This document shows, one piece after another, positions 24,397 through 63,470 of a stretch of DNA of 64,000 bases; position 1 is the stretch's first letter, and each line of letters begins with the position of its first letter. Under the pieces are notes generated by a model. It saw only the letters and a list, made by a program, of their open reading frames with translations, did not search any database and was not told where the DNA came from. Location of the stretch: contig OZ024750.1 in NCBI GenBank assembly GCA_964016885.1, positions 24,862,001 through 24,926,000 on the forward strand, given 5' to 3'. The DNA is from Eledone cirrhosa (taxonomy: Eukaryota). The position numbers were made by a program, and so were the translations under genes.

Positions 24397-24457
24397 ATGA
24401 TGGAAAATTTTATGAGCAGTGGCCGAAATATCTCTTTTAAATCTCAAAATGCAGCAG
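24397..24457 (+). CDS. Probable first coding exon of the Kir gene (MMENFMSSGRNISFKSQNAA+G)
   Basis: ATG at 24397 with an in-frame TAA upstream (24376). Consensus donor CAG|GTAAGT at 24457/24458. Phase 1 matches the phase-1 acceptor at 30284 (G+AT=Asp), giving a 414-aa protein. No homology support seen. Confidence 0.55.
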
Positions 24458-25342: not shown

Positions 25343-26448
25343 TCAAATACCTTCCAGTCGAGACCATCTCATTGTTTCAAGCAAAGTACATCTAAGACTA
25401 TATTCATTGACTACATATATTATCTAATGTATCCTTCCTTTTTAAGATGGTAGAATTTGGTTTGGGGGACTTTAGCTGCTATTTTAAGCAAGTTAAGCGA
25501 CTACATAGAGGCGCATTCACTGTTTTATTGTTGTTGTTTAGCCCCAGGTCAACCGTGTTCAACCAGTCCTATGATTAAAAACACTCCAGCTGTGACCATT
25601 CAGTTTTTCTATGTATGAAGAGGGGGCTCCAACATGATTAAATGCTTCCTTTTGTAAGACGGGCTGTGATTTGAAGAAATATTGGCTACTGTTTTTAACA
25701 GGTCAAGTGATGGTGGTGGTATTGGTGTTGGTGGCAGTGGTGGTGATGGTCATAGCATTGGTAGTGGTGGCAGTGGTGGTGATGGTAATAGCATTGATAT
25801 TGGTGGCAGTGGTGGTAGCATGTTGATGATGGTTATAGTGGTGTTGGTGGCAGTGGTGGTGGTTGTAGTGGTGTTGGTGGCAGTGGTTGTAGTGGTGTTG
25901 GTAGTGGTGACAGTGCTGGTGCCAGTGATGGTAACATGGTGATGATAGTAGTAGTAGTAGTGGTGGTGGTGGTGGTTGTACTATTATTGTTAGTAATAAC
26001 AGTACAGCAATAACTAAAATCAATGATAATAATCTTGTAACAATATTATGGTTGTTATTGTTGTTATTGATATTTAGAAAGGAAAGAAAAGGAAAGAACA
26101 TTTCTTGTATATTTATACATATTCTCATTTTTTCTTTTTTAAGGATTGGATTTCCTCAAAAGAATTGTGAAAATATGGAAGGTTTATATTTTTTCTCCCT
26201 CTCTCTCTAACTTTTCAACACTTTGCACCTTAGTTTTTTTATGTTTTCTTATCACAGCTTCTTCACTGAAAATATCTCTTCACTCTCACAAATTAGAATT
26301 ATTTAGTTAATGTTTTGTTTTTCGAATAGGCTATGTAGCCGGTAAACCTTAAAGGGACGCAACATACACTTATCACAGCTTCTTCACTGAAAATATCTCT
26401 TCACTCTCACAAATTAGAATTATTTAGTTAATGTTTTGTTTTTCGAAT

Positions 26449-26824
26449 AGGCTATGTAGCCGGTAAACCTTAAAGGGACGCAACATACACTTATCACTAT
26501 AGTGTTTCACCAGCCCTTTCCTACCTTAATCATTCATAGATGTGTGTATTTGTAATAATTATTTTGTATAATGTGTCTATTTATGAATATGTATGAGTAG
26601 ATGTGTGTGTGTATGTATGTATGGGTTTGCACTTCTGTAATCTGTATCTGTTTGTGTTTACGTGAAGATGTGTGTGTATGTAACTAAAGCGTAACGTACG
26701 TTACGAATGGACGACTAAATGATTTTAACTTGTTTTTTAACAATTGATGGGGGAAAAGATTTCAAATTGTCTTAACTCGGGGTGCAACTCATGCTGTCTG
26801 ACACTCTTACCGGCTACATAGCCT
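26449..26824. mobile_element. Unclassified TIR element
   Basis: Perfect 18-bp inverted repeat AGGCTATGTAGCCGGTAA / TTACCGGCTACATAGCCT; no clear TSD. Confidence 0.5.
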
Positions 26825-28148
26825 GGGAGTCTATTTTACTGGGACCAGCTACGTAGCCTCTTTCTTTTCTTTTCTTCTCCTCACCAGTAATGTCATGTGT
26901 CTGTTGTTTATAGTAATGCAACAATGAGATTTACTGTCTAACCCATGCTAGCGTGGAAAATGGACATTAAACGAAGATGATGATGATGATGATGAGATTA
27001 TCATAATTTTAGCTGTGAATGATTTTAGCCATCTTTTGCTGATCTTTGCCATTCTTCTTTTTCTCTCACTTTCTTTAATTGACTCTTATGTAATTCTATT
27101 CCCTTTTAATGTCCACCAATACACCTTGTGTTGTTTAGCCCTTTAGCATTTAAACCAGCCATATCTGGCCAGAATTCTCTCACCTCTTTCTGTTCAAACC
27201 GGCTGTAACCGGCCACTCATAGTGACATTAAAGTATTGTTCTTGAAATAAATAATGGCAAAATCTTATAGATGTGATATGTGAGGTAAAGCATTTACTGT
27301 GAAAATACAATAGTAAATATAGAATAATGTAAATGCTAAAGGGTTAAGGTATTGTTCACAAAATAAATTATAACATCATCAAAATCTTATAGATTCCATA
27401 TTGTGTGAGATACAGCCTTTACTGTGAAAATATAATAATAGAGTAATGTAAATGCGAAATGGTTAAATACAACTGATATTCCATCACTATTTACTATTTT
27501 GTATTATACAAGACAGGCACGCTTAACGCTTTAGCATTTACATTACAGGTTCTGTCCCTTCCATGTAGTTAAAAGATATTTCATCTTGTTCCAGTGCATT
27601 TATTTAACCCTTTACCATTTATATTACCCTATATATAGTATTATATTTTCACAGTAAAGGCTTTACCTCACTTAATTATCTCACATAATAGCAAATCTAT
27701 GAGATTTTGATATTATTTATTCTGAGAACAATACCTTAACATCAGTAAGAGTGGTCAGTTATAGCCAGTTTAAATGCTAAAGGGTTAAAATAATTTTTTT
27801 GCTTGTCCCTAGCTGAACTCTGCAGCATTTCTTGGTGAAAAGGACAGTCTGTTGATGCTTGTGAGTCTGTCTGTCTGTTTCTCGTTTGGCTAAGCCCTTG
27901 TGCACCGTTCTCTCCCTTTGTCAGTTGACACATTTTGGATACTTTACCATCTATAATTTGTGTAATTCATCAAAACACATAACTTGTCCTGTCTTTGTCT
28001 CTACTTGTTTTCTTATCTCTCAATATGCAATGGAATGAATGGTATCAACCTAAAAACACCGAAACCATATTGATTTCCAGAGGTTGACTGAGGAGATGGG
28101 TTCCGTATTTTTTCCATTGTCTTTGTCTGGTGCACCCCTTTATTTTGA

Positions 28149-28186
<38 letters not shown>

Positions 28187-28255
28187 AAAAAGAGATGAAA
28201 TCGAAAATGCAACTGGAGTCTTATTTTTTTTCAAAATATATATATTTATTTGGTT

Positions 28256-28293
28256 CCTTTACCGGTTTCGCAGTTTTTCTGCTTTTCAAAAGG
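28256..28293 (-). ncRNA. Minimal type I hammerhead ribozyme motif (U3-A8 variant)
   Basis: CCUU-UUGAAAA-GCAG(AAAAA)CUGC-GAAA-CCGG-UA-AAGG: stem I 4 bp, stem II 4 bp, palindromic ACCGGU stem III, GUA site. Confidence 0.75.
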
Positions 28294-28370
28294 TGAGTTG
28301 AGATGGAGGGTTTGTGGTTTTTCTCACATCTCAGATATGAGAAAAACCACAGACCCTCCATCTCAACTCA

Positions 28371-28408
28371 CCCTTTGAAAAGCAGAAGAACTGCGAAACC
28401 GGTAAAGG
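28371..28408 (+). ncRNA. Inverted copy of the same hammerhead motif
   Basis: CCCU-UUGAAAA-GCAG(AAGAA)CUGC-GAAA-CCGG-UA-AAGG; one C-A mismatch in stem I. Confidence 0.65.
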
Positions 28409-29195
28409 AACCAAATAAATATATATATTTTTTTTTTAAATAAGACTCCAGTTGCATTTTCGATTTCATCTCTTTTTCTTTATACTTTCACTCGTGTAGG
28501 ACACCTCGGTTATTTTTCATTTTGTAAAAAAAACCTCACTTTCTAATATATATATATATATACACACACACACTTTTATTCTATTATATAAATATACACT
28601 ATATTCTATATATATATATATATATTTGTTCTGCAAGATTCTTGATGTGAAATTGTGTATTCAAACTGATATTGTTATATTTGGGGATGGTCATGTTAGT
28701 ATTGCCAATAGAAAGTAACATACGCACCATTTGAATTTCATTTTCTCTTTATTGCTTGTTATTCATTTGTTTGTCAAAGTTCTTTCATCACACAGTCTGT
28801 GACCTCCACAATGGCTATCCATTCTTTTGTGCCTCCTGTTTTGAAAATGGATAGCAATGGTAAGGAGTGAGAGTATGAGGGGAGAGAAACAGCAATGGTA
28901 GGGAGTGAGACAGCAATGGTAGGGGTGGGAGTATGATGGGAGAGAGATAGTAATAGTTGGGGGCGGGAGTATGATGGGAGAGAGACAGCAATGGTGGGGG
29001 GGGGGGGGTCAGAGTGTGATGGGAGAGAGACAGCAATGGTAGGAATTGGGAGCAAGTGTATAGACAGATTGAAACAACAATTTTCTCAGCCTCTTCACCA
29101 CAAGATATCCAACTGATACAAGATATTATATCTAACATGATATATAAAAAAACCCAGTAGTATTAGGTCAATATGTAACAACAGATTCAAATATA

Positions 29196-30165
29196 CAGTT
29201 GTCCCCTGGTATTCGTGGGAGTTACACTCCTAGAGCATCCGCAAAGAGTGAAAAACCGCGAATATTGGACGTGGTCCATAAAAATGCCTATAAACGTCAA
29301 AACATAACGTAAAACATAGGCCAGCAAATACAGTATGTTGTTATTATTTAGCGTGAAAAAGCGTGAAAAATATATATTTGTTTCTACTTTAGGCACAAGG
29401 CCAGCAATTACCCAGTTCATTACTGGTACTTTATTTTATCGACCCCGTAAGGATGAAAGGCAAATTGCCACGAAAAAAGCCATAGATAAAATGCGGAAGA
29501 TATTTACGACTGTAAATATGCGGTGGTTTCCGTGAATAATTATTAGTTAGGGTCTGAGGAAAATTCCGCGAATGTCAGGACTGTGAATGACCGGGACTGT
29601 GAATGACCGGGACTCCGAATGTTGGGACTATGAATGACCGGGACTGCGAATGACCGGGACTGCGAATGACTGGGACTGCGAATGACCGGGACTGCGAATG
29701 ACTGGGACTGCGAATGACTGGGACTGCGAATGACCGGGACTGTGAATGACCGGGACTATGAATGTTGGGACTGCGAATGACCGGGACTGCGAATGACTGG
29801 GACTGCGAATGACCGGGACTGCGAATGACTGGGACCGCGAATGACTGGGACTGTGAATGACTGGGACCGCGAATGACCGGGACTGTGAATGACTGGGACC
29901 GCGAATGACCGGGACTGTGAATGACCGGGACCGCGGATGACCGGGACCGCGAATGACCGGGACTGCGAATGACCGGGACCGCGAATGACCGGGACTGCGA
30001 ATGACCGGGACTGCGAATGATCCGCGTCTGTGAATGACTGGAACTGCGAATGATCCGCGTCTGTGAATGACCGGGACTGTGAATGACCGGGACTGCGAAT
30101 GATCCGCGTCTGTGAATGACCGGGACTGCGAATGATCTGGGACCGTGAATGCCAGGGGTACACTG
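29196..30165. mobile_element. Tigger/pogo-type MITE with TA TSD, carrying a SINE B fragment and an internal 16-bp minisatellite
   Basis: TA-CAGTTGTCCCCTGGTATTCGTGG ... CCGTGAATGCCAGGGGTACACTG-TA. Confidence 0.75.
29570..30150. repeat. CpG-rich minisatellite, 16-bp unit
   Basis: gggactgcgaatgacc tandem copies inside the Tigger-type MITE. Confidence 0.92.
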
Positions 30166-30283
30166 TATTGTTCTTTTTTTCTGTTATGCAGAGAATAATT
30201 TTTGTCTTTTCTATACAAAATTTACTTGAATATATCACTAATATATTTGTTTTATTTTTCTCTTCTTATTTTTTCACAATCAG

Positions 30284-31467
30284 ATTTATCGAGTGAGTGG
30301 AGCAGAAGTGGCTCACTGGAGATGCGTAATTTCCTCCGACCAGGTAAACAATTTCGATTGGTCAGTCGAGGTGGACATGTAAACATCAAACAGACTGGAA
30401 TCAGCAAACGAAACCAAAAATTTCTCTCAGATTTCTTTACAACCCTCATTGATGTTAAATGGCGCTGGAACCTCCTCATATTTGTTGTATCGTTTATTTC
30501 AGCCTGGTTGGGTTTTGCTGGTTATTTTTATGTTTTGGCTCATTTACATGGAGACTTTGAAGATGATAAGCCTCAAGACTGGGTGCCATGTATAGAAAGT
30601 GTACACTCTTTTACCACTGCTTACTTATTTTCTATTGAAACTATGACAACAATCGGATATGGCTCACGTTATGTATCAGAGGAATGTCCTGGGGCTGTTC
30701 TTGGAGTACTTTTTGAATCTATTCTTGGGGCAGCAATGCAGGCAGCATTCTGTGGCTTGGTTATAGCAAAAGTGAAACGTGGTAAAAAACGTTCTGGCAC
30801 AATATTATTCAGCAAGGTGGCTTGTATCATGGAAGAAGATTTGCAATATAAATTTGTATTTCGTGTTGGAGATATGCGAAAGTCTCATCTCATCACTGCC
30901 AGCGCCCGAGGTTTATTTATTAAGAAAAGTTTTTCAAAATCAGGAAACAACATTCCTGTAGAATATTTTAATGTAAATTTCAAAGCTGAAGATGGACACA
31001 ATAATTTATTTTTAGTTTGGCCAACCAATGTTTACCATGAAATAGATGAAAAATCACCATTTTATAACATTTCACGTGACAGTTTACGTCATGAAAACTT
31101 TGAAGTAGTTGTCATGTTACAAGCTGTAGTGTCAACAACTGGTCGGACTGTCCAAGCTAAAACATCTTACTTACCCTGGGATATCATATGGGGACATCGT
31201 CTGGAACCATTAACAACATCCATTGATAGCAATGGTTCACATATTGTAGATTTTACACACTTTGACACCACATACCCAGTTCCTACACCATGGTGCAGTG
31301 CTCAGACTTTCAATTACATAATAAAATCCGGCCGCTATACACCAGAACTGCTACTAAATAGAGATGATATGGGGGAACTGATCAAAGAAACTGAAAGTAC
31401 ATCAGCTAAAAAGACATACACATTATTTGGATCCATACCAGATCTAACACATCGAAATTGGATGTAG
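30284..31467 (+). CDS. Inward-rectifier potassium channel (Kir family), main coding exon
   Basis: Translation has Kir hallmarks: slide helix/TM1 DFFTTLIDVKWRWNLLIF, CIESVHSFTTAYLFSIETMTTIGYGSRYVSEECP (TIGYG filter, both conserved Cys), KKRSGTILFS, FRVGDMRKSH, HEIDEKSP, SYLPWDIIWGHR. Pyrimidine tract and CAG acceptor end at 30283. In-frame ATG at 30322, stop TAG at 31465-31467. The track's TTG start at 30202 lies in the intron. Confidence 0.96.
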
Positions 31468-39922: not shown

Positions 39923-40037
39923 TCATGTGTCTATGTTAGCAAAGATGCGGGACACTTCAGCTTTCTGTGTGGAATTCATGTGTTGTTTGATGTGAATAAT
40001 TGAATCCATTGCAACTTCAGGATTGTTCTGGATTAAA
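39923..40037 (-). CDS. ACC: Acetyl-CoA carboxylase last coding exon
   Basis: (S)[37 protein letters not shown]; matches the animal ACC C-terminus ([11 protein letters not shown]); TGA at 39925-39923. Confidence 0.95.
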
Positions 40038-40116
40038 CTGAAATATTCAAAGGATAAATTATTAGAGATTACTACATGTGTAAAGAAGAAAGAAAGACAG
40101 ACATAGAAAACACTGG

Positions 40117-47301: not shown

Positions 47302-47436
47302 CTGCAGAATTTAAACAAATAAACACACAACAATATAGTAGGAAGAAAAGAGATTTCACCCTTTAGCATTTTCATTACTCTATATTTACTATTGTATTTT
47401 CACGGTAAACACTTTATCTCACATAAGCTTAGGTAC

Positions 47437-47762
47437 ATGGCTTAGTGGTTAGAGCATTGGTCTTGCAATCGAAAGGTTGTGAGTTCAATTCTCAGACCGG
47501 GTGATGTGTTGTGTCCTTGAGCAAGACACTTTATTTTACATTGCTCCAGTTTACTCAGCTGTAGAAATGAGATGATAGGGACTGGGGTCCATATCATTCC
47601 ACTGCAAAGTGGTCGTGGAGGTGCCACAGCAAAAAAGCACCCAGCACTCACTGTAAATGAGGTTGGTGTTAGGAAGGGCATCCAGCTGTAGAAATCAAGC
47701 CAGAATCAGTTCCCGTCCCACCCTTGCAAGCAGGGAAAAAGCGGACGTAAAATGAAATGAAT
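47437..47762 (+). mobile_element. tRNA-headed SINE family A (CORE-like centre, RTE-like tail), full copy nested in a piggyBac-type MITE
   Basis: A box TGGCTTAGTGG, B box GAGTTCAATT, centre tgtgtccttgagcaagacactt, tail ggaagggcatccagctgtagaaa...ggacgtaaaatga shared with the RTE 3' UTR. Confidence 0.85.
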
Positions 47763-61758: not shown

Positions 61759-61853
61759 CCTAACTGTACCAAGGATTTCACACATTTTCCAATATATATA
61801 TATACACCACATGTTGTCAACATTAACTCAGTATATATATATATATATATACC

Positions 61854-63470
61854 GACTTGGAGAAAGCCTTCGACAGAGTCCCCCGTTCCATTATCTGGTG
61901 GGCTCTTAGAAAACTAGGTGTTGATGAATGGCTTGTGAGAGCTATACAAGCCATGTATAAAGAAACAGTCAGCAAGGTTAGAATTAACAACGAATATAGT
62001 GAAGAGTTTAGCGTAAAAGTTGGTGTTCATCAGGGCTCTGTTCTTAGCCCCCTACTATTTATTATTGCCCTTCAGGCTATAACAGTGGAGTTCAAGACCA
62101 GCTGCCCATGGGAACTCCTATACGCAGATGATCTAACGTTCATAGCTGAATCAATGGCCGAGCTAGAGAAGAAATTCCAAACATGGAAGCACGGCCTAGA
62201 ATCAAAAGGCCTTAAAATTAACCTGGCTAAAACTAAAGTTCTAGTTTGTAAGAAAGAAAATAAGGCGGCGGTCCCCTCCGGGAAGTGGCCATGCTCAGTG
62301 TGTAGGAAAGGCGTAGGTAGAAACTCCATTTTGTGTCCCAAATGCAAAGTATGGGTGCATAAAAGATGTAGTGGGATCACAGGTAAGCTAACTAAGAACA
62401 TAGATTTTACATGTGGCCGGTGCTCTGGGGCAATAAGTAGCAGCAAGTGCCCACAGAATACTAGCTCTTTCAACTGCGCAGAGGGTTCTATAGAAATAGT
62501 GGACAGCTTCTGTTACCTGGGTGACAAAATCAGCAGTGGGGGAGGGTGCTCTGAAAGTACAGTAGCTAGAGTCAGAACTGGATGGAAAAAGTTCAGAGAG
62601 CTTATACCGCTATTAGCCGCTAAAGGGTTCTCCCTAAAAATGAAAGGCAGGTTGTATGATGCCTGCATACGAACAGCAATGTTGCATGGCAGTGATACCT
62701 GGGCATTGTGTGCAGAGGATATAAGCAGACTAGAGAGAAACGAAGCTTGCATGCTCCGCTGGATGTGTAATAGTAATATACGTGAACGGCAAAGCATAAA
62801 CGAACTAAGGAAAAAATTAGAAATAAGAGGGATCAGATGTTGTTTACTCGAGAGAAGGCTACGTTGGTATGATCACGTGATGCGCATGAAGGACGATAGC
62901 TGTATAACAAAGTGCAGTGCAATAAAGATAGACGGTAGCCACGGAATAGGCAGACCCAGAAAAACCTGGGACGAGCTGATAAATTCCGGCCTCACACACT
63001 TACACCTCACCAAGACAATGTCACTGGACCGAGACCTTTGGCGGTACTCAGTAATAGAGAAGACTCGCCTTACCTAAGTACAAAGTAAAACCTACTACAG
63101 TCAGTAGGCATCTCTAACAAAATACACCCCCGTCCCACCACCCCCACCCCATCCACACCGCCCCTTTCAATGTAAAGTTATGTTGGTGCCACAACATCCA
63201 GGCCGAAACAAATGAGATCGTGTAGGTGTCACGTCAAAAAAACACACAGTTCACGCTGTAATGTGGCCGTGTAGGCAACACGGTAAAAACCTCCCAGCCC
63301 CACACTGTAAATGTGGTTGGTTTTAGGAAGGGCATCCAGCTGTAGAAAACCCGCCAGATAGTCCTATGCGAGCAAGATAACCACTCTTGCCTCAAGTGGG
63401 AAAACCCCCGTCCAAACCCATGCAAGCGTGGAACACGGACGTTAAACGATGATGATGATGATGATGATGA
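61854..63470 (+). mobile_element. 5'-truncated RTE-clade LINE (RT C-terminal part, uninterrupted ORF to 63077, 3' UTR and (GAT)n tail), antisense in an ACC intron
   Basis: DLEKAFDRV, GVHQGSVLSPLLF, LLYADDL, GLKINLAKTKV, FCYLG, RRLRWYDHVMRM, GRPRKTW. Begins in a (TA)n tract and ends in (GAT)n. Confidence 0.93.

What the first reader, a model, noticed from the sequence alone, without database searches (positions are those of the whole stretch)
28180..28545. 300-bp fold-back in the Kir intron with two opposed hammerheads showing U3-A8 covariation
Seen: ~152-bp arms centred on 28332, then a ~60-bp unpaired tail, with (TA)n on both sides. The minus copy reads CCUU UUGAAAA GCAG-aaaaa-CUGC GAAA CCGG UA AAGG. 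UUGAAAA replaces CUGANGA with both C3->U and G8->A, preserving the established 3-8 tertiary pair, and stem III is the self-complementary ACCGGU needed for dimeric folding. Inference: a real ribozyme lineage rather than chance. The sense (+) copy has a stem I mismatch and would be locked in duplex with its antisense arm, which could neutralise it in Kir pre-mRNA.
Basis: partly seen in the sequence, partly recalled or inferred. Interest (0 to 1): 0.75.

Follow-up and report, generated by a model that had tools for sequence, protein, structure and literature searches.

The report
Mirror-image Penelope retrotransposon end
This fold-back is one of more than 1,600 near-identical mirror-image leftovers of a Penelope-type jumping gene in this genome; it sits in a potassium-channel intron, and its two self-cutting-RNA motifs are an already described variant that is predicted to be locked up by base pairing, so the site itself is ordinary.

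Summary
It is the end (pLTR) of a young Penelope-like element (PLE). The core occurs 10,997 times in the genome, the fold-back centre at 1,671 sites, and longer copies run into an RT + C-terminal GIY-YIG ORF. The U3-A8 variant, opposed pairs, tails and (TA)n targeting are all published for PLEs. There is no covariation inside this family: 0 C3-G8 copies, 42 and 15 single changes. The stem I mismatch of the + copy is a sporadic change (56 against 6,239 copies), not a Kir-specific device. Of 100 consecutive copies, 51 begin at one spot 30 nt below a TATA box and 89 end at two TA-matching sites. I infer two cDNAs primed from both sides of a cut (TA)n target on uncut RNA and joined head to head. 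Cleavage is untested; U3 can pair with A17, which would inhibit it. Ordinary; low interest.

The parts
28154..28183 (.). Left (TA)n target microsatellite; its last 4 nt are also the TA-matching end of the left arm
28180..28331 (-). Inverted, tail-less pLTR copy (element positions q1-152; q1 = 28333 on the right arm, 28331 on the left)
28256..28293 (-). Minimal type I hammerhead motif, U3-A8 core, 4-bp stem I, A17; predicted cut 28260/28259
28326..28338 (.). Head-to-head junction at the family's 5'-end hotspot, the inferred transcription start of the parent
28332..28484 (+). Direct pLTR copy (q0-152), paired with the left arm
28371..28408 (+). Second hammerhead motif, sense to Kir; sporadic stem I mismatch at 28373; predicted cut 28404/28405
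28485..28552 (+). PLE tail (61 nt plus up to 7 nt shared with the TA target); in tandem parent copies it continues into the ORF1 start 29 nt further on
28546..28562 (.). Right (AT)n target microsatellite
26182..30283 (+). Host intron of the inward-rectifier K+ channel gene (phase 1)
26144..26181 (+). Upstream Kir coding exon (an alternative one lies at 24400-24457)
30284..31467 (+). Main Kir coding exon

Best explanation
The fold-back is a 5'-truncated insertion of a young Penelope-like retroelement, made of one inverted tail-less end and one direct end with its tail, and it was likely written by the element's own enzyme priming two short cDNAs from both sides of a cut (TA)n target and joining them head to head. 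Shown: family membership, copy number, the parent ORF, the fixed ends. Inferred: (1) the parent RNA starts at q1, 30 nt below a TATA box; (2) the GIY-YIG domain cuts (TA)n on both strands; (3) each target end pairs with one of two AU-rich sites 152 and 213-220 nt into the RNA and is extended to the RNA's 5' end; (4) the two cDNA ends are joined through short homologies; (5) the template was mostly uncut, so each arm carries a whole hammerhead motif as a passenger. In Kir pre-mRNA the + motif is predicted to be captured by the antisense arm transcribed just before it, and no transcript of the minus strand is known, so neither motif would cut here. In the parent, the motif likely works as a slow, dimer- or protein-gated ribozyme, held back by a U3-A17 pair.
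For: 213-nt arm matches 40 of 40 scored copies at 96-100% out of 951 candidates. Exact core 5,547 + 5,450 times, control 0. Longer copies L032, L033, L035, L039 carry the same end on an ORF with RVT_1 (E 5e-7, 1e-6) and C-terminal GIY-YIG (E 8e-5, 4e-6), DKG motif and, in L035, a C-x4-C-xx-C linker. Of 100 consecutive copies on contig C1 picked by a 3' anchor: 51 start at q0-9, 62 end at q217-220, 27 at q152, 78 have (TA)3 right after the 3' end. TATA box 30 nt before q1, ATG at q242. Of 48 head-to-head pairs among the loci held, 45 have one tailed and one tail-less arm, and 41 share the same subfamily state. In long insertions (L026, L033, L035, L036) the inverted arm joins element-internal sequence at a non-palindromic junction, which simple snap-back does not give. 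A purified lizard PLE protein cuts and extends both strands, starts at two internal RNA sites that define the tail, and inserts uncut RNA (PMC11167929). Long hairpin prediction; U3-A17 pair in the lowest-energy fold, analogous to the inhibitory C3-G17 pair (PMC3884650).
Against: No RNA data: the start site, the splice and any cleavage rest on sequence alone. D. virilis Penelope uses an internal, TATA-less promoter (PMC2377424), so short copies are not proven silent. Short fold-backs fit snap-back self-priming equally well (proposed in PMC3846280), and rare variants shared by both arms (2 of 16 pairs; 24 shared changes in 48 pairs) fit snap-back or arm-to-arm conversion too. In the lizard element priming sites are not homologous to the target, whereas here they match it. 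A weak excess of copies starting at the predicted cut (21 of the first 100 listed, hand count) suggests that some templates were cut. The 48 pairs are not a random sample: some loci were picked as best hits or as known pairs.
Confidence: 0.88

Rival explanations
1. Same element, but the mirror image arises by snap-back: one cDNA primed at the tail runs to the RNA's 5' end, folds back on itself and copies itself to the second TA-matching site.
For: Explains one tailed plus one tail-less arm (45 of 48) and shared subfamily state (41 of 48), and rare variants present in both arms. Self-priming was proposed for rotifer PLE palindromes (PMC3846280).
Against: Long insertions join an inverted arm that includes sequence upstream of q1 to a body truncated inside the ORF, with no palindrome at the joint (L026, L033). 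The purified lizard enzyme extends both target strands.
Confidence: 0.25
2. The 213-nt unit is an independent non-autonomous element (SINE or retrozyme) that is transcribed, self-cleaved and copied by itself.
For: Sharp shared ends and very high copy number; animal retrozymes are argued to derive from PLE pLTRs (10.64898/2026.07.22.740005).
Against: The unit is 96-98% identical to the ends of full-length copies and shares their subfamily states; 5' ends sit 72 nt upstream of the cut, with 3 of 100 at q73-77; the TATA box is not part of the unit; no head-to-tail array of the unit was seen in the loci printed, though arrays were not searched for genome-wide.
Confidence: 0.08
3. A domesticated ribozyme module that controls Kir pre-mRNA, with the sense copy deliberately neutralised.
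For: It lies in a real Kir intron; the sense copy has a stem I mismatch and is predicted to be duplexed.
Against: At least 1,671 such fold-backs exist; the mismatch is at about background frequency (56 against 6,239; compare 42 U3C copies); arms differ at 3 of 106 scored sites, like the mean of other pairs (3.2%); it lies 2.0 kb from the donor and 1.7 kb from the acceptor.
Confidence: 0.03
4. Assembly artefact (chimeric fold-back read).
For: Perfect palindromes are a known long-read artefact (recalled); no laid record was shown to span this junction.
Against: The arms differ (93%), have different biological ends, and the same architecture recurs in 45 of 48 pairs.
Confidence: 0.01

Closest known systems
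Minimal hammerheads of metazoan Penelope-like elements, including the U3-A8 variant of Schistosoma mansoni Cercyon elements (Cervera and de la Pena 2014, PMC4209133; parts 1-2 of 4 read, supplements not seen)
   Same: Type I minimal motif in the pLTR, short stem I, G10.1-C11.1 pair, palindromic positions 15-16 for dimer folding, U3-A8 core, thousands of mostly truncated copies, opposed pairs 100-700 bp apart.
   Different: Stem II is 4 bp with no extra nucleotide after A9, against 7-8 bp in the schistosome families; about 11,000 near-identical copies of one motif instead of many diverse families; whether the schistosome U3-A8 variant also has A17 could not be seen (figure and supplement not available).
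Neptune / Nematis clades of endonuclease-containing PLEs (Craig et al. 2021, PMC8557442; passages read)
   Same: C-terminal GIY-YIG, CX2-5CxxC linker, DKG motif, inverted 5'-truncated copy, tail at one end only, (TA)n targets, upstream ORF1 that can be separated by a frameshift.
   Different: Tail is 61 nt against the 30-40 bp described; the clade (Neptune or Nematis) was not resolved, no tree was built.
Poseidon element of the green anole, in vitro (Frangieh et al. 2024, PMC11167929; parts 1-2 of 4 read)
   Same: Two internal priming sites that define the tail; AT-rich targets cut on both strands; uncut RNA is the main template; hammerhead inactive alone and protein-assisted.
   Different: Here both sites lie before the ATG and match the (TA)n target, while in the anole element they lie 111-118 nt inside the ORF and are not homologous to the target; core is U3-A8, not C3-G8.
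Metazoan non-LTR retrozymes (10.64898/2026.07.22.740005; part 1 of 5 read)
   Same: Non-coding, hammerhead-bearing, PLE-related repeats of high copy number.
   Different: Retrozymes are head-to-tail arrays with a hammerhead in each unit; this is a head-to-head pair nearly identical to the end of an autonomous element.

Membership tests
Penelope-like elements (EN+) | Telomerase-like RT plus GIY-YIG endonuclease on the parent | tested here: met
   RVT_1 and GIY-YIG Pfam hits on L033 and L035; DKG, GTAMG, YLDD motifs. Telomerase-like placement itself not tested by a tree.
Penelope-like elements (EN+) | pLTRs in direct or inverted arrangement, 5' truncation | tested here: met
   Direct pair in L032 and L039, inverted in L033, L035, L036; truncation map
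Penelope-like elements (EN+) | Optional tail at one end only | tested here: met
   45 of 48 head-to-head pairs have one tailed arm; length 61 nt, longer than published
Neptune / Nematis clades | C-terminal EN with CX2-5CxxC linker and microsatellite targeting | tested here: met
   Linker intact in L035, one Cys changed in L033; 78 of 100 copies followed by (TA)3
Neptune / Nematis clades | Position in the RT phylogeny | not tested
   No reference RT set was at hand
Minimal type I hammerhead of PLEs | Conserved core with a Watson-Crick 3-8 pair, stems I and II, H17 | tested here: met
   Minus copy passes the descriptor, 0 hits in shuffles; + copy has a stem I mismatch
Minimal type I hammerhead of PLEs | Palindromic helix III allowing a dimer | tested here: met
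   ACCGGU self-duplex -8.3 kcal/mol; co-folding of two copies forms it, but with U3 paired to A17
Minimal type I hammerhead of PLEs | 3-8 covariation among relatives | tested here: not met
   Within the family 0 C3-G8, 42 C3-A8, 15 U3-G8 exact copies against about 11,000 U3-A8; the double change exists only relative to other families (4 C3-G8 motifs in other repeats)
Minimal type I hammerhead of PLEs | Self-cleavage after H17 | not testable with these tools
   Genomic footprint inconclusive: 21 of 100 at the cut, 6-7 of 100 and no peak (hand counts)
Non-LTR retrozymes | Head-to-tail tandem units, each with a hammerhead | tested here: not met
   This locus is head-to-head; none seen in the loci printed

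The most novel reading that the evidence does not exclude
The family is a 12,000-copy fossil record of the PLE insertion reaction: RNA starting at a TATA-driven start, both strands of a (TA)n break priming at two target-matching internal sites, head-to-head joining, and a U3-A8/A17 hammerhead kept shut by a U3-A17 pair until the element's protein or a second copy opens it, with about 1% of insertions copied from RNA already cut after A17. That would be genomic evidence that a metazoan PLE hammerhead cuts in vivo, which the papers read here do not show.
Probability: 0.25. Interest if true: 0.5.

Novelty: new member of a known kind. Interest (0 to 1): 0.2.

Why it matters
For Kir, probably little: it is one random insertion among thousands. 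For PLE biology the family is a convenient test bed. Sharp 5' and 3' ends in thousands of young copies, near-intact parents and a self-inhibiting core let one test twin priming against snap-back, target-matched priming, and whether the hammerhead ever cuts in vivo. At least 1,671 fold-backs of about 150 bp would also add double-stranded RNA where they fall in introns, a likely substrate for RNA editing (inference; untested).

Tried and rejected
Rfam gathering scan: no hammerhead hit. Nesting inside the acetyl-CoA carboxylase gene, which would make the minus copy sense: rejected, its lowest exon found is 39926-40039, with about 30 C-terminal residues of the longest query unplaced. A Kir exon at 28026-28083 that I first predicted from an in-frame splice: rejected, it lies in an interspersed repeat and matches no homolog N-terminus. 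Reading the stem I mismatch as an inherited subfamily mark because many best hits share it: rejected, those hits were selected by likeness to the query; 0 of 83 anchor-picked copies have it. Cleavage footprint in 5' ends: inconclusive (hand counts of the first 100 listed matches; AT-rich short homologies confound it). Two-ORF parent with a -1 overlap as a novelty: already described for PLEs. Expression: no RNA holder listed. An empty site in a relative: one organism-B contig puts the 27907-28098 repeat about 90 nt from the Kir exon region, but that stretch is a repeat, so orthology is not secure. Laying reads on the junction showed mostly other family copies. Lunse et al. 2017 on PLE hammerhead variants cleaving as dimers is not held; only its title was seen in a reference list, and it may already cover U3-A8/A17 activity.

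Full report
Observation. The repeat finder gives arms at 28180-28331 and 28333-28484, 152 nt, 93% complementary, one base apart. A 61-nt unpaired stretch follows (28485-28545), and both sides are (TA)n. A minimal-hammerhead descriptor finds only this copy in the window and nothing in 20 shuffled windows. The + copy has C for U at 28373 in stem I. Rfam reports no hammerhead. Below, q is the position in the right arm, q1 = 28333; the cut falls after q72.

Host gene. The ORF at 30199-31467 is an inward-rectifier K+ channel, 97% identical to annotated octopus proteins, so the genome is octopus-like. Their alternative N-termini map to 26144-26181 and 24400-24457 and splice in frame onto 30284. The element therefore lies in intron 26182-30283, 2.0 kb from the donor. 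The splice is inferred from homology, not from RNA. The acetyl-CoA carboxylase gene on the minus strand has its lowest exon found at 39926, so it gives no known antisense transcript here.

What it is. The right arm with tail matches 40 of 40 scored copies at 96-100%, from 951 candidates. The exact core occurs 5,547 + 5,450 times, control 0; a 3' anchor 12,012 times; the head-to-head centre at 1,671 sites. [quoted passage not shown] In tandem copies L032 and L039 the tail runs on into ORF1. This is an endonuclease-containing Penelope-like element of Neptune or Nematis type (features from passages of PMC8557442); the clade was not resolved.

Anatomy of the family. I took the first 100 anchor matches on contig C1 and mapped their ends against one real copy. 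51 of 100 start at q0-9, 15 run past the 330-nt reference limit, 10 start at the internal TA run (q83-87), 3 at q73-77. 62 end at q217-220 and 27 at q152; both sites end in TA-matching letters that are part of the element, and 78 of 100 are followed by (TA)3. A TATA box starts exactly 30 nt before q1 and the ATG is at q242, so q1 is likely the transcription start. Among 48 head-to-head pairs in the loci held (not a random set; duplicates of six loci were dropped first), 45 have one tailed and one tail-less arm, 41 share the subfamily state at q38-39, and arms differ by 3.2% on average; this locus has 3 differences in 106 sites.

Mechanism. The likely route is: RNA from q1; both strands of a (TA)n target cut; each end primes at one of the two AU-rich sites and is copied to the RNA's 5' end; the two cDNAs are joined by short homologies. 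This matches in vitro work on the anole Poseidon element, which cuts and extends both strands, starts at two internal sites that define the tail, and uses uncut RNA (PMC11167929, parts 1-2 of 4). Snap-back self-priming (PMC3846280, passages) explains short fold-backs equally well, but not the long insertions whose inverted arm joins ORF-internal sequence without a palindrome. Short copies lack the TATA box; Drosophila Penelope has an internal promoter (PMC2377424, passages), so their silence is not proven.

The ribozyme claim. U3-A8 minimal hammerheads, their palindromic helix III, their low activity even as dimers, and opposed pairs 100-700 bp apart were reported for PLEs (PMC4209133, parts 1-2 of 4; supplements not seen and may bear on position 17). 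In this family U3, A8 and A17 are each present in 82 of 83 copies that cover them. Genome-wide there are 42 C3-A8, 15 U3-G8 and 0 C3-G8 exact copies: no internal covariation. The lowest-energy folds pair U3 with A17, as monomer and as dimer, the analogue of the inhibitory C3-G17 pair (PMC3884650, passages), so activity is likely low or gated. About 51 of 83 copies have a different stem I with an internal A-G mismatch. The + copy's mismatch occurs in 56 copies against 6,239 and on one arm only in 14 of 16 paired cases among 28 loci examined. A Kir transcript is predicted to fold the whole element into one hairpin, which would trap the + motif; the same holds for the minus motif in any antisense RNA.

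Is there a footprint of cutting? Hand counts of the first 100 listed matches: among fold-back junctions with one arm starting at q50-76, 6-7 start at q73, with no peak (180 matches in all). Among AT-flanked starts at q64-76, 21 are at q73, 17 at q75, 13 at q74, 10 at q72, 9 each at q71 and q76, and 21 over q64-70 (224 matches, control 37). In one search, 7-8 of about 37 distinct loci start at q73. The mode is at the cut, but A/T-rich short homologies favour the same region, so this is a hint only; such copies are about 1% of the family at most.

Print and earlier notes. A search for octopus + Penelope + hammerhead gave 5 papers (4 listed), none about this family by title or abstract start; U3-A8 terms gave PMC4209133 as the only relevant one. 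Lunse et al. 2017 could not be read. PMC6765202 (passages) reviews PLE hammerheads; the retrozyme preprint was read in part 1 of 5; editing papers were seen as a listing only. Earlier scan notes on other repeats in this genome describe the same two-armed footprint; they are unchecked AI notes and not counted as support. Their lead on editing scars was not borne out in this family: 0 of 236 arms.

Verdict. Observation confirmed; interpretation partly supported. A new member of a known kind: a truncated PLE end with a known hammerhead variant, with no sign of a Kir-specific role. Interest 0.2; the value lies in the family as a record of the insertion reaction.

Noticed in passing
L137, L032, L033, L039 (ORF1/ORF2 overlap): The parent has a 397-aa ORF1 (intact in L137) overlapping the RT ORF in the -1 frame; a U-rich slippery heptamer context is present in 29 of 30 copies and an A-rich one in 28 of 30. 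Frameshifted ORF1 is known in PLEs; frameshifting itself untested.
   Followed up: partly
window 39926-63685 (minus), continuing beyond the window: Multi-exon acetyl-CoA carboxylase gene converging on Kir; its last roughly 30 residues were not placed.
   Followed up: partly
window 24400-24457 and 26144-26181: Two alternative upstream Kir coding exons matching octopus isoform N-termini.
   Followed up: yes
window 27134-27790: A second, more diverged inverted-repeat element (arms 79-88%) in the same intron, very high copy in laid runs; MITE-like, not examined.
   Followed up: no
window 27956-28100: Older interspersed repeat (copies about 80-85% alike) next to the insertion; mimics an in-frame exon.
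   Followed up: partly
window 29562-30169: 16-bp minisatellite just upstream of the Kir acceptor.
   Followed up: no
window 47432-47499: Weak tRNA-like match (30.5 bits), probably the head of a tRNA-derived SINE inside a carboxylase intron.
   Followed up: no
window 61827-63077: Reverse-transcriptase fragment with a PHD finger, antisense inside a carboxylase intron.
   Followed up: no
other repeats within fetched loci L001-L162: Four minimal hammerheads with the canonical C3-G8 core and palindromic helix III in unrelated repeats; L034 also holds GIY-YIG ORFs of other PLE families.
   Followed up: no
G000:C22:8519585-8519730; C4:262303138-262303265; C3:54822288-54822422: Rare core or stem variants occur in both arms of single fold-backs, pointing to one template per insertion or to arm-to-arm conversion.
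   Followed up: partly
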